A stretch of 64,000 nt of DNA from Escherichia coli (GTDB lineage: Bacteria > Pseudomonadota > Gammaproteobacteria > Enterobacterales > Enterobacteriaceae): assembly GCF_003334765.1 (NCBI RefSeq), contig NZ_QOWT01000002.1; one strand, written 5' to 3'. Positions 39,001-42,000 of this stretch are shown piece by piece. Every line of letters starts with the position of its first letter. Position 1 is the first letter of the stretch. The position numbers are program-made.

Positions 39001-42000
39001 CACGAAACCATTATCAAGGCTGCCGCAGACCTGATCTCCCGTGATGCGCCGGATTATCAGTATCTCGCCGCGCGCCTGGCGATCTTCCACCTGCGTAAAA
39101 AAGCCTACGGCCAGTTTGAGCCGCCTGCGCTGTACGACCACGTGGTGAAAATGGTCGAGATGGGCAAATACGATAATCATCTGCTGGAAGACTACACGGA
39201 AGAAGAGTTCAAGCAGATGGACACCTTTATCGATCACGACCGTGATATGACCTTCTCTTATGCTGCCGTTAAGCAGCTGGAAGGCAAATATCTGGTACAG
39301 AACCGCGTGACCGGCGAAATCTATGAGAGCGCCCAGTTCCTTTATATTCTAGTTGCCGCGTGCTTGTTCTCGAACTACCCGCGTGAAACGCGCCTGCAAT
39401 ATGTGAAGCGTTTTTACGACGCGGTTTCCACATTTAAAATTTCGCTGCCGACGCCAATCATGTCCGGCGTGCGTACCCCGACTCGTCAGTTCAGCTCCTG
39501 CGTACTGATCGAGTGCGGTGACAGCCTGGATTCCATCAACGCCACCTCCAGCGCGATTGTTAAATACGTTTCCCAGCGTGCCGGGATCGGCATCAACGCC
39601 GGGCGTATTCGTGCGCTGGGTAGCCCGATTCGCGGTGGTGAAGCGTTCCATACCGGCTGCATTCCGTTCTACAAACATTTCCAGACAGCGGTGAAATCCT
39701 GCTCTCAGGGCGGTGTGCGCGGCGGTGCGGCAACGCTGTTCTACCCGATGTGGCATCTGGAAGTGGAAAGCCTGCTGGTGTTGAAAAACAACCGTGGTGT
39801 GGAAGGCAACCGCGTGCGTCATATGGACTACGGGGTACAAATCAACAAACTGATGTATACCCGTCTGCTGAAAGGTGAAGATATCACCCTGTTCAGCCCG
39901 TCCGACGTACCGGGGCTGTACGACGCGTTCTTCGCCGATCAGGAAGAGTTTGAACGTCTGTATACCAAATATGAGAAAGACGACAGCATCCGCAAGCAGC
40001 GTGTGAAAGCCGTTGAGCTGTTCTCGCTGATGATGCAGGAACGTGCGTCTACCGGTCGTATCTATATTCAGAACGTTGACCACTGCAATACCCATAGCCC
40101 GTTTGATCCGGCCATCGCGCCAGTGCGTCAGTCTAACCTGTGCCTGGAGATAGCCCTGCCGACCAAACCGCTGAACGACGTCAACGACGAGAACGGTGAA
40201 ATCGCGCTGTGTACGCTGTCTGCTTTCAACCTGGGCGCAATTAATAACCTGGATGAACTGGAAGAGCTGGCAATTCTGGCGGTTCGTGCACTTGACGCGC
40301 TGCTGGATTATCAGGATTACCCGATCCCGGCCGCCAAACGTGGAGCGATGGGTCGTCGTACGCTGGGTATTGGTGTGATCAACTTCGCTTACTACCTGGC
40401 GAAGCACGGTAAACGCTACTCCGACGGCAGCGCCAACAACCTGACGCATAAAACCTTCGAAGCCATTCAGTATTACCTGCTGAAAGCCTCTAATGAGCTG
40501 GCGAAAGAGCAAGGCGCGTGCCCGTGGTTTAACGAAACCACTTACGCGAAAGGGATCCTGCCGATCGATACCTATAAGAAAGATCTGGATACCATCGCTA
40601 ATGAGCCGCTGCATTACGACTGGGAAGCTCTGCGTGAGTCAATCAAAACGCACGGTCTGCGTAACTCCACGCTTTCTGCTCTGATGCCGTCCGAGACTTC
40701 TTCGCAGATCTCTAACGCCACTAACGGTATTGAACCGCCGCGCGGTTACGTCAGCATCAAAGCGTCGAAAGACGGTATTTTGCGCCAGGTGGTGCCGGAC
40801 TACGAGCACCTGCACGACGCCTATGAGCTGCTGTGGGAAATGCCGGGTAACGATGGTTATCTGCAACTGGTGGGTATCATGCAGAAATTTATCGATCAGT
40901 CGATCTCTGCCAACACCAACTACGATCCGTCACGCTTCCCGTCAGGAAAAGTGCCGATGCAGCAGTTGCTGAAAGACCTGCTCACCGCCTACAAATTCGG
41001 GGTCAAAACACTGTATTATCAGAACACCCGTGACGGCGCTGAAGACGCACAAGACGATCTGGTGCCGTCAATCCAGGACGATGGCTGCGAAAGCGGCGCA
41101 TGTAAGATCTGATATTGAGATGCCGGATGCGGCGTAAACGCCTTATCCGGCCTACGGCTCGGTTTGTAGGCCTGATAAGACGCGCCAGCGTCGCATCAGG
41201 CTCCGGGTGCCGGATGCAGCGTGAACGCCTTATCCGGCCTACGGCTCGGATTTGTAGGCCTGATAAGACGCGCCAGCGTCGCATCAGGCACAGGATGCGG
41301 CGTAAAATGCCTTATCCGGCATTAAACTCCCAACAGGACACACTCATGGCATATACCACCTTTTCACAGACGAAAAATGATCAGCTCAAAGAACCGATGT
41401 TCTTTGGTCAGCCGGTCAACGTGGCTCGCTACGATCAGCAAAAATATGACATCTTCGAAAAGCTGATCGAAAAGCAGCTCTCTTTCTTCTGGCGTCCGGA
41501 AGAAGTTGACGTCTCCCGCGACCGTATAGATTACCAGGCGCTGCCGGAGCACGAAAAACACATCTTTATCAGCAACCTGAAATATCAGACGCTGCTGGAT
41601 TCCATTCAGGGTCGTAGCCCGAACGTGGCGCTATTGCCGCTTATTTCTATTCCGGAACTGGAAACCTGGGTCGAAACCTGGGCGTTCTCAGAAACGATTC
41701 ATTCCCGTTCCTATACTCATATCATTCGTAATATCGTTAACGATCCGTCTGTTGTGTTTGACGATATCGTCACCAACGAGCAGATCCAGAAACGTGCGGA
41801 AGGGATCTCCAGCTATTACGATGAGCTGATCGAAATGACCAGCTACTGGCATCTGCTGGGCGAAGGTACCCACACCGTTAACGGTAAAACTGTGACCGTT
41901 AGCCTGCGCGAGCTGAAGAAAAAACTGTATCTCTGCCTGATGAGCGTTAACGCGCTGGAAGCGATTCGTTTCTACGTCAGCTTTGCTTGTTCCTTCGCAT

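What the first reader, a model, noticed from the sequence alone, without database searches (positions are those of the whole stretch)
41113..41345. Unusually large BIME (about four REP units) inside the nrdA-nrdB operon junction
Seen directly: 230 bp of alternating REP palindromes separate two genes that must be co-expressed as enzyme subunits. Established knowledge: REP clusters form stable RNA structures that act as 3' exonuclease barriers and can set differential stability of upstream versus downstream cistrons; they also bind gyrase and IHF. Here the element may tune the nrdA:nrdB ratio, and it makes the ORF track over-extend nrdB by 77 codons.
Basis: partly seen in the sequence, partly recalled or inferred. 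Interest (0 to 1): 0.3.

Follow-up and report, generated by a model that had tools for sequence, protein, structure and literature searches.

The report
Known BIME-2 repeat between nrdA and nrdB
The 233-bp gap between the two ribonucleotide reductase genes of E. coli K-12 holds a well-known repeat array (a BIME-2 of five REP hairpins, a published gyrase cleavage site) whose copy number varies from zero to seven among E. coli strains, so it is an ordinary, already described element and not a finely tuned regulator.

Summary
The window is E. coli K-12, and 41113-41345 is exactly the nrdA-nrdB spacer. It carries a BIME-2 array of five REP units, not four: y, z2, y, z2 and a truncated y'. The array starts 9 nt after the nrdA stop codon. 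The 77-codon "extension" of nrdB is a mechanical ORF artefact.

The element is already known. A published gyrase-mapping table lists this locus as a 202-bp BIME-2 with cleavage sites in three of four conditions, and notes two in-vivo cuts reported in 1997. It ranks 13th of 263 by length, so it is large but not exceptional.

New context found here:
- E. coli strains carry 3, 4, 5 or 7 REP units at this site.
- In 31% of 5,426 genomes there is no REP, only a BoxC palindrome, next to the same NrdA and NrdB proteins.
- In 79 Enterobacterales species the spacer runs from 12 to 322 nt, and 70 of them have a strong hairpin there.

So a hairpin after nrdA is tolerated or favoured, but the number of REP units is not tuned. 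IHF binding does not apply to this BIME type. Any effect on the NrdA:NrdB ratio remains untested. Novelty: already known. Interest is low.

The parts
38827..41112 (+). nrdA coding sequence (class Ia ribonucleotide reductase alpha subunit, 761 aa), stop TGA at 41110-41112
   Evidence: ORF list; RefSeq annotation b2234
41113..41121 (+). 9-nt gap (TATTGAGAT) between the nrdA stop codon and the first REP stem
   Evidence: Sequence read directly. The spacing is below the 15-nt limit quoted for REP-dependent ribosome stalling.
41122..41155 (-). REP unit 1, y type. On the mRNA strand it reads palindrome + CTAC ('iREP'). The GTAG-first form lies on the minus strand.
   Evidence: Exact match to the y consensus; hairpin of -21.3 kcal/mol
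41156..41165 (.). Short linker GGCTCGGTTT, tail-to-tail between CTAC and GTAG
   Evidence: repeat I3: 10 nt between the arms
41166..41201 (+). REP unit 2, z2 type (GTAG + GCCTGATAAGACGCGCCAGCGTCGCATCAGGC)
   Evidence: hairpin of -22.8 kcal/mol
41202..41208 (.). Short linker TCCGGGT, head-to-head
41209..41242 (-). REP unit 3, y type (1 mismatch to the y consensus), ends in CTAC
   Evidence: hairpin of -18.2 kcal/mol
41243..41253 (.). Short linker GGCTCGGATTT. BL21-type strains carry an 8-bp duplication here.
41254..41289 (+). REP unit 4, z2 type, identical to unit 2
   Evidence: D1, I10; hairpin of -22.0 kcal/mol
41293..41320 (-). REP unit 5, a y-like remnant. It lacks the 5' GCC of the stem and is followed by ATTA in place of CTAC. 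E. albertii has the full-length version.
   Evidence: D3, D4; hairpin of -11.8 kcal/mol; comparison with L008
41121..41289 (.). Tandem duplication of one y-z2 module (period 87-88 bp, 1.9 copies, 96% matches). This is the unit gained or lost among strains.
   Evidence: TRF; allele alignment
41321..41345 (+). Unstructured nrdB translation-initiation region. The Shine-Dalgarno AGGA lies at 41335-41338, 7 nt before the ATG. This stretch is conserved in all E. coli alleles, including those without REPs.
   Evidence: fold of 41320-41365 gives -2.5 kcal/mol, z = +0.28
41346..42476 (+). nrdB coding sequence (376 aa). The mechanical ORF starts at TTG 41115, which adds 77 codons.
   Evidence: cross-species protein matches begin at residue 1; the upstream open frame is not conserved
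41312..41347 (-). yoaM (b4779), an annotated 11-codon antisense small ORF. Its start overlaps the nrdB ATG and its stop lies inside REP unit 5.
   Evidence: MG1655 annotation; Weaver et al. preprint 10.1101/511675

Best explanation
This is the known BIME-2 of the E. coli nrdA-nrdB intercistronic spacer. BIME-2 is a type of REP-derived repeat array that expands and contracts. Here the array has five REP units (y, z2, y, z2 and a truncated y') built from one 87-88-bp y-z2 module.

Shown in published work on this locus: at the DNA level it is a preferred gyrase cleavage site.

Inferred for the RNA level: the array is transcribed within the nrdAB-yfaE mRNA as five consecutive stem-loops of -12 to -23 kcal/mol each, without a U-tract. 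These probably act as generic hairpins. They would block 3'-to-5' exonucleases and so protect the nrdA segment. They may partly attenuate transcription. Because the first stem starts 9 nt after the nrdA stop codon, they may also hinder terminating ribosomes. nrdB would then be translated independently from a conserved, unstructured initiation region downstream of the array.

The number of units reflects repeat dynamics, that is module gain and loss by recombination, slippage or the REP-associated transposase. It does not reflect selection for a particular subunit ratio. Other strains and species fill the same slot with other hairpins or with none.
For: Identity:
- The window is 100% identical to K-12, and annotation places nrdA and nrdB on either side.
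- y and z2 consensus matches have a chance expectation of 0.
- Orientation alternates, with CTAC/GTAG tails and 3-11-nt linkers.
- The period is 87 bp.
- This fits the BIME-2 definition in Ton-Hoang et al..
- Rfam naRNA4, a family derived from a BIME-2 module, scores 76.4 bits against a gathering score of 59.5.

Gyrase:
- Table DS3 of Sutormin et al. lists this locus as BIMEs2, 202 bp, nrdA>-nrdB>.
- That paper describes BIME-2 as transcription-independent strong gyrase sites.

RNA:
- The whole spacer folds with z = -5.5.
- There is no intrinsic terminator and no plus-strand promoter-like site in the spacer, so nrdB depends on read-through.
- The RepRanger paper counts the nrdAB REP transcript among those within 15 nt of a stop codon and says Liang et al. 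2015 had reported it.

Not tuned:
- E. coli spacers measure 46, 88, 145, 151, 189, 226, 233, 241 and 322 bp.
- That corresponds to 0, 3, 4, 5 or 7 REPs, differing by clean module steps.
- 1685 of 5426 genomes carry the BoxC-type spacer without any REP.
- The same NrdA and NrdB protein accessions flank different alleles.
- Across 79 Enterobacterales species the spacer is 12-322 nt with unrelated contents.
Against: No transcript, decay or protein data for nrdA versus nrdB could be retrieved. The RNA-level steps are therefore inferred from general REP biology.

The Liang et al. 2015 paper was not held, so the claim about the nrdAB transcript is second-hand.

70 of 79 species keep a strong hairpin in this slot, and in 57 of them it starts within 15 nt of the stop codon. 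That could mean stronger selection on structure than 'generic' implies.

The allele frequencies come from 59 sampled rows of a biased genome collection.
Confidence: 0.8

Rival explanations
1. The size of the array is a selected setting that fixes the NrdA:NrdB ratio. The nrdA segment upstream is stabilised against 3' exonucleases, while nrdB decays or is transcribed at a different rate.
For: The hairpins are very stable. A strong hairpin in this slot is nearly universal in Enterobacterales with spacers of 30 nt or more (70 of 79 species). The 233-nt gap rules out translational coupling, so the two cistrons can be set independently. REPs are accepted 3'-exonuclease barriers (citing Newbury 1987 and Khemici 2004).
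Against: The unit number varies among E. coli strains that carry identical NrdA and NrdB proteins: 0, 3, 4, 5 or 7 units. 31% of genomes have no REP at all. Photorhabdus and Xenorhabdus manage with a 12-nt spacer and no hairpin. No expression data for this locus were found.
Confidence: 0.12
2. The array is a transcription attenuator, a partial and possibly Rho-assisted terminator, that lowers nrdB-yfaE transcription relative to nrdA.
For: 17 of 79 related species have a perfect-stem hairpin followed by a T-run in this slot, as in an intrinsic terminator. This suggests an ancestral attenuator. Two of the papers read here list Espeli et al. 2001, whose title links BIMEs with transcription attenuation, in their references. 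One of them says REP elements sometimes play a direct role in Rho-dependent termination.
Against: The K-12 spacer has no terminator-like site, that is no T-run after any stem. No plus-strand promoter-like site lies between the array and nrdB. By general knowledge, nrdB is needed for aerobic growth, so read-through must be efficient. The Espeli 2001 paper could not be read.
Confidence: 0.2
3. The array is purely selfish or neutral filler. It has no effect on nrdAB expression and sits here only because the slot tolerates insertions.
For: The site is hypervariable within the species. Contents are replaced outright (BIME-2, a different four-unit BIME, BoxC, a 46-bp remnant) and modules are gained and lost in clean steps. 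Published work reports that BIME copy number varies between strains at a given locus and that BoxC loci are unusually variable.
Against: Gyrase does cleave it in vivo. Five hairpins that start 9 nt from a stop codon on an essential mRNA are unlikely to have no measurable effect on RNA ends or on translation termination.
Confidence: 0.25
4. The array is a source of nucleoid-associated REP RNA similar to naRNA4. Together with HU, this RNA would bridge cruciform DNA.
For: Rfam naRNA4 matches above the gathering score on the minus strand at 41169-41239 (76.4 bits). The preprint by Weaver et al. places an antisense transcription start upstream of yoaM, which would read into the array. In vitro, the complement of naRNA4 also condensed DNA.
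Against: The match reflects only that naRNA4 is itself a y-z2 module. The mRNA-strand matches fall below the gathering score (41.4 and 34.3 bits). Nothing shows that RNA from this locus binds HU. The array is absent from 31% of strains.
Confidence: 0.05

Closest known systems
BIME-2 arrays of E. coli (for example eco-mqo, tldD-yhdP, sucB-sucC, rhaA-rhaD, araD-araA, and REP325 at yjdM-yjdN)
   Same: Alternating y and z2 REPs in inverted orientation. Short linkers. Tandem y-z2 modules of about 87 bp. Extragenic location, often between co-transcribed genes. Gyrase cleavage. Strain-variable copy number.
   Different: Nothing essential differs, since this locus is itself in the published BIME-2 lists. 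It is mid-to-large at 202 bp, against a range of 13-654 bp. Its last unit is a truncated y without the CTAC tail.
BIME-1 (also called RIB or RIP; a y and z1 pair with an L linker that binds IHF)
   Same: Built from REP palindromes in inverted pairs.
   Different: BIME-1 is single-copy and has a long conserved L linker carrying an IHF site. This array has z2 units, is tandem, has 3-11-nt linkers and has no IHF-consensus match. A BIME-1-like pair with an IHF-like site does occur elsewhere in the window, at 10851-10994.
REP mRNA stabilisers and REPs close to a stop codon (Newbury 1987; Khemici and Carpousis 2004; Liang, Rudd and Deutscher 2015)
   Same: Stable REP hairpins sit 3' of a cistron inside an operon. 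The first stem is 9 nt from the stop codon, within the quoted 15-nt limit.
BoxC, also called PIT or TMECO (an intrastrand-triplex palindrome)
   Same: It occupies the same nrdA-nrdB slot in 31% of E. coli genomes and forms a strong hairpin.
   Different: It is an unrelated sequence family. Its hairpin starts about 29 nt after the stop codon, against 9 nt for the BIME. An earlier study found no terminator or promoter activity for it.

Membership tests
BIME-2 | Contains y-type REP units (consensus GCCGGATGCGGCGTNAACGCCTTATCCGGC + CTAC) | tested here: met
   Matches at 41122-41151 (0 mismatches) and 41209-41238 (1 mismatch). Chance expectation is 0.00.
BIME-2 | Contains z2-type REP units (a longer palindrome, GTAG + GCCTGATAAGACGCG..CGCATCAGGC) | tested here: met
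   Two identical units at 41166-41201 and 41254-41289. The same z2 type, in the other orientation, occurs at 34281-34317.
BIME-2 | REP and inverted REP alternate, separated by short linkers, in multiple tandem copies. There is no long L linker. | tested here: met
   The order is y, z2, y, z2, y' with linkers of 10, 7, 11 and 3 nt. TRF gives an 87-bp period and 1.9 copies.
BIME-2 | Extragenic location | tested here: met
   It lies wholly between the nrdA stop (41112) and the nrdB start (41346).
BIME-2 | The number of tandem modules at a locus varies among strains | tested here: met
   Alleles with 3, 5 and 7 units differ by clean 87-88-bp modules.
BIME-2 | Cleaved by DNA gyrase in vivo | not testable with these tools
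BIME-1 (IHF-binding RIB/RIP) | Long conserved L linker with an IHF site between a y and a z1 REP | tested here: not met
   Linkers are 3-11 nt. No WATCAANNNNTTR match at up to 1 mismatch occurs in 41113-41345.
Rfam RF02564 naRNA4 | Score at or above the gathering threshold of 59.5 bits | tested here: met
   76.4 bits on the minus strand at 41169-41239. On the mRNA strand the scores are only 41.4 and 34.3 bits. The match shows shared y-z2 architecture, not an HU-related function.
REPs that down-regulate translation of the upstream gene (Liang et al. 2015) | REP stem begins within 15 nt of the stop codon | tested here: met
   9 nt separate the TGA (41110-41112) from the stem start at 41122. The criterion is quoted.
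REPs that down-regulate translation of the upstream gene (Liang et al. 2015) | Ribosome stalling, mRNA cleavage and trans-translation at the upstream gene | not testable with these tools
   Only a second-hand statement that the nrdAB REP transcript was reported there. The paper is not held.

The most novel reading that the evidence does not exclude
The slot just after the nrdA stop codon is under selection for a strong stem-loop. Unrelated elements have filled it repeatedly: terminator-like hairpins, genus-specific REP pairs, BoxC, and BIME-2 arrays. On this reading, the natural E. coli alleles (0-7 REP units, with the stem 9 or about 29 nt from the stop codon) give measurably different NrdA:NrdB output or dNTP supply. 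They would then form a natural allelic series for how REPs set expression within an operon.
Probability: 0.2. Interest if true: 0.4.

Novelty: already known. Interest (0 to 1): 0.1.

Why it matters
As it stands, little. REPs and BIMEs have been catalogued in E. coli for decades, and this locus already appears in published BIME-2 and gyrase-cleavage tables.

The useful by-products are practical. Gene callers should not extend nrdB through the array. The IHF attribution does not apply to this BIME type.

This site also offers a convenient natural allelic series for anyone who wants to test what REP arrays do to the expression of an essential two-subunit enzyme. The series runs from no REP or BoxC through 3, 4, 5 and 7 units.

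Tried and rejected
Literature that gave nothing:
- The primary paper on REPs near stop codons (Liang 2015) and its follow-up are not held.
- The 1984 nrd operon sequence paper is not held.
- Li 2014 and Lalanne 2018, which report protein synthesis rates, are not held.
- The Term-seq supplement of Dar and Sorek is not held.
- Text searches for nrdA/nrdB together with REP, Term-seq, mRNA stability or copy numbers gave nothing specific to this locus.

Ideas considered and rejected:
- A real N-terminal extension of nrdB. The open frame upstream varies from 4 to 85 codons among alleles, and cross-species homology starts at the annotated ATG.
- A gene in the minus-strand 93-aa ORF at 41003-41284. 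It runs through REP palindromes and the end of nrdA and has no annotation.
- An intrinsic terminator in the K-12 spacer. No stem is followed by a T-run.
- An internal nrdB promoter in the spacer. No plus-strand site was found.
- IHF binding.

A method that did not work well: my first crude hairpin-plus-tail scan misjudged terminator tails. I replaced it with an explicit stem-loop plus T-run search.
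Full report
**What is there**

The window matches E. coli K-12 MG1655 at 100% identity. RefSeq annotation places nrdA at window 38827-41112 and nrdB at 41346-42476, followed by yfaE. The finding's coordinates, 41113-41345, are exactly the 233-bp nrdA-nrdB spacer.

Read directly and with the repeat finder, the spacer contains:
- 9 nt (TATTGAGAT)
- a y-type REP at 41122-41155, ending in CTAC
- a 10-nt linker
- a z2-type REP at 41166-41201, starting with GTAG
- a 7-nt linker
- a second y at 41209-41242
- an 11-nt linker
- a second z2 at 41254-41289
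- 3 nt
- a fifth, truncated y-like unit at 41293-41320, with no CTAC tail
- a 25-nt A/C-rich leader with the Shine-Dalgarno AGGA at 41335-41338, then the nrdB ATG

TRF reports an 87-bp period, 1.9 copies and 96% matches. REP consensus patterns have a chance expectation of 0.00 in shuffles.

The corrections are that there are five units, not about four, and that the array is specifically a BIME-2. The 77-codon over-extension of nrdB (TTG at 41115) is real as a mechanical ORF. It is an artefact, for two reasons. The in-frame open stretch upstream of the ATG varies from 4 to 85 codons among natural alleles. Cross-species protein matches begin at residue 1 of the annotated NrdB.

**Is it unusually large?**

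Supplementary table DS3 of Sutormin et al. 2019 (PMC6379681) lists 263 REP intervals of K-12 that are not BIME-1. The nrdA>-nrdB> entry is 202 bp. Twelve entries are longer, from 235 to 654 bp. The array is in the top 5% or so, which is large but not exceptional.

BIME-2 arrays between co-transcribed genes are common in that table. Examples are sucB-sucC, rhaA-rhaD, aceA-aceK, glnA-glnL, lamB-malM and araD-araA.

**What is already known about this element**

The same table records gyrase cleavage sites inside this array: 2 with ciprofloxacin, 3 with rifampicin plus ciprofloxacin, 0 with microcin B17 and 3 with oxolinic acid.

[quoted passage not shown] The DNA-level function is thus shown experimentally for this locus.

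The BIME-2 definition comes from Ton-Hoang et al.: z2 plus y REPs, in tandem copies, with short linkers and strain-variable copy number. All the sequence features are met here. The same source says IHF binding is a property of the L linker of BIME-1. This spacer has no such linker and no IHF-consensus match at up to 1 mismatch.

Rfam's naRNA4 family is built from one y-z2 module of REP325. It matches above threshold on the minus strand (76.4 bits against 59.5) and below threshold on the mRNA strand. That confirms the architecture and says nothing about function.

From my own knowledge, not verified here, the REPs between nrdA and nrdB were already noted when the operon was sequenced and in the first REP catalogues in 1984.

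**RNA level (inferred)**

The spacer RNA folds to -118 kcal/mol, with z = -5.5. The five units fold individually at -21.3, -22.8, -18.2, -22.0 and -11.8 kcal/mol. Neighbouring y and z2 units can also pair with each other, giving -48 kcal/mol for one module. The nrdB initiation region at 41320-41365 is unstructured, at -2.5 kcal/mol and z = +0.28.

The spacer has no stem followed by a T-run and no plus-strand promoter-like site. nrdB must therefore be expressed by read-through and by independent translation initiation.

The first stem starts 9 nt after the nrdA stop codon. The RepRanger paper (PMC12306157) quotes the finding of Liang et al. 2015 that REPs within 15 nt of a stop codon stall ribosomes. 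[quoted passage not shown] I could not read the primary paper.

REP hairpins as barriers to 3' exonucleases are established in general. I could retrieve no data on transcript ends, decay or protein ratio for this locus.

**Variation within E. coli**

Searches of 5,426 complete genomes and retrieved examples show an allelic series at this one site.

| Spacer length | Contents | Example |
|---|---|---|
| 322 bp | 7 units | STEC306 |
| 241, 233, 226 bp | 5 units | BL21, with an 8-bp duplication; K-12; O157:H7, with a truncated third unit |
| 151, 145 bp | 3 units | Res13, 22AR0750 |
| 189 bp | 4 units of different, shorter REP types | CFT073, E2348/69 |
| 88 bp | no REP | H3, ST131 |
| 46 bp | no REP, remnant only | BS-04 |

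The 3-, 5- and 7-unit alleles differ by clean 87-88-bp modules and share identical flanks.

The 88-bp allele matches the published BoxC/PIT/TMECO consensus exactly. The BoxC-type spacer is present in 1685 of 5426 genomes, or 31%.

In a spread sample of 59 chromosomes the counts were: 26 with 5 units, 11 with 3 units, 3 of the CFT073 type, 1 with 7 units and 18 with BoxC. The collection is biased towards laboratory and clinical strains.

The same NrdA and NrdB protein accessions flank different spacer alleles. In the BoxC allele the hairpin begins about 29 nt after the stop codon, not 9 nt. This variation argues against the array size being a tuned parameter.

**Variation among species**

Eighty Enterobacterales loci were retrieved with NrdB, and the spacer could be measured in 79. 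It ranges from 12 to 322 nt, with a median of 79.
- Photorhabdus and Xenorhabdus have 12 nt (TTTGAGGAAGTT) and no hairpin. Providencia has 20-23 nt.
- Kosakonia, Cedecea, Buttiauxella, Rahnella and others have one GC-rich hairpin followed by a T-run. In all, 17 of 79 have a perfect-stem, terminator-like site.
- Citrobacter, Klebsiella, Pluralibacter and Pseudescherichia have their own REP pairs.
- Pseudocitrobacter and Phytobacter have BoxC-like elements.
- E. albertii has the same y-z2-y-z2-y array at 240 bp, with a full-length fifth unit.

Seventy of the 79 spacers contain a hairpin of -12 kcal/mol or better. In 57 of them it starts within 15 nt of the stop codon. A strong stem-loop just after nrdA is therefore nearly universal. 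Its identity is not conserved, and a few lineages do without it.

**Conclusion**

The element is an ordinary, previously catalogued BIME-2. Its shown activity is as a gyrase target. Its likely RNA-level effects are exonuclease protection of nrdA, possible mild attenuation and possible interference with termination at the nrdA stop codon. Other palindromes would supply the same generic hairpin effects in other strains and species.

In the specific sense that array size matters, it is disfavoured by the natural variation. Novelty: already known. Interest is low.

The most novel reading still open is that the slot itself is selected for structure and that the natural alleles differ in output. I put that at about 0.2.

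Noticed in passing
window 41312-41347 (minus strand): MG1655 annotation carries yoaM (b4779), an 11-codon antisense ORF. Its ATG overlaps the nrdB ATG and its stop codon lies inside REP unit 5. The preprint by Weaver et al. reports translation of a yoaM-lacZ fusion and a transcription start 174 nt upstream. That antisense RNA would read into the BIME, in the orientation that matches naRNA4 best.
   Followed up: partly
L006 and L007, positions 401-488 (E. coli H3 and ST131); 1685 of 5426 genomes: About 31% of complete E. coli genomes have no REP between nrdA and nrdB. They have an 88-bp spacer that matches the BoxC/PIT/TMECO triplex-motif consensus exactly. Strain BS-04 (L089) has only a 46-bp remnant.
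   Followed up: yes
L088, positions 1405-1726 (E. coli STEC306): A 322-bp spacer with seven REP units. The repeated y-z2 modules are nearly identical, which suggests a recent expansion.
   Followed up: yes
L005, positions 401-589 (E. coli CFT073; also E2348/69): A different four-unit BIME occupies the same slot. It combines divergent y-like units with a shorter 29-nt REP (GTAGGCCGGATAAGCGAAGCGCATCCGGC), possibly z1-type. I could not check the z1 consensus.
   Followed up: partly
L018, L022, L027, L031, L032, L034, L036, L037, L070 and others (nrdA-nrdB spacers of other Enterobacterales): 17 of 79 species have a perfect-stem hairpin plus a T-run, as in an intrinsic terminator, between nrdA and nrdB. 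It usually starts 2-6 nt after the stop codon. Photorhabdus and Xenorhabdus have only a 12-nt spacer.
   Followed up: partly
L055, positions 1179-1500 (Pectobacterium betavasculorum): A 322-nt spacer holds a long imperfect inverted repeat (ATGATAATGGG...CCCATTATCAT) that looks like an inserted miniature element. It is absent from P. zantedeschiae (L053) and was not identified.
   Followed up: no
window 42741-42778: A single degenerate REP (GTGCCAGATACAACGCTTATGCGTCTTATCTGGCCTAC) lies about 10 nt after the yfaE stop codon, at the 3' end of the operon. It gives a weak naRNA4 match of 26.7 bits, and the published table lists a 35-bp interval at the corresponding position.
   Followed up: partly
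window 34281-34362: [quoted passage not shown] It corresponds to an 81-bp entry in the published table, with no gyrase cleavage sites.
   Followed up: no
window 10851-10994: Two y-type REPs about 114 bp apart have an IHF-consensus-like site (TTTCAACAAATTA, 1 mismatch) between them at 10896-10908. The pair looks like a BIME-1 and contrasts with the nrd array, which has no such site.
   Followed up: no
window 41003-41284 (minus strand): A mechanical 93-aa ATG ORF runs antisense through the REP array into the end of nrdA. It has no annotation and looks like another ORF artefact created by the palindromes.
   Followed up: partly
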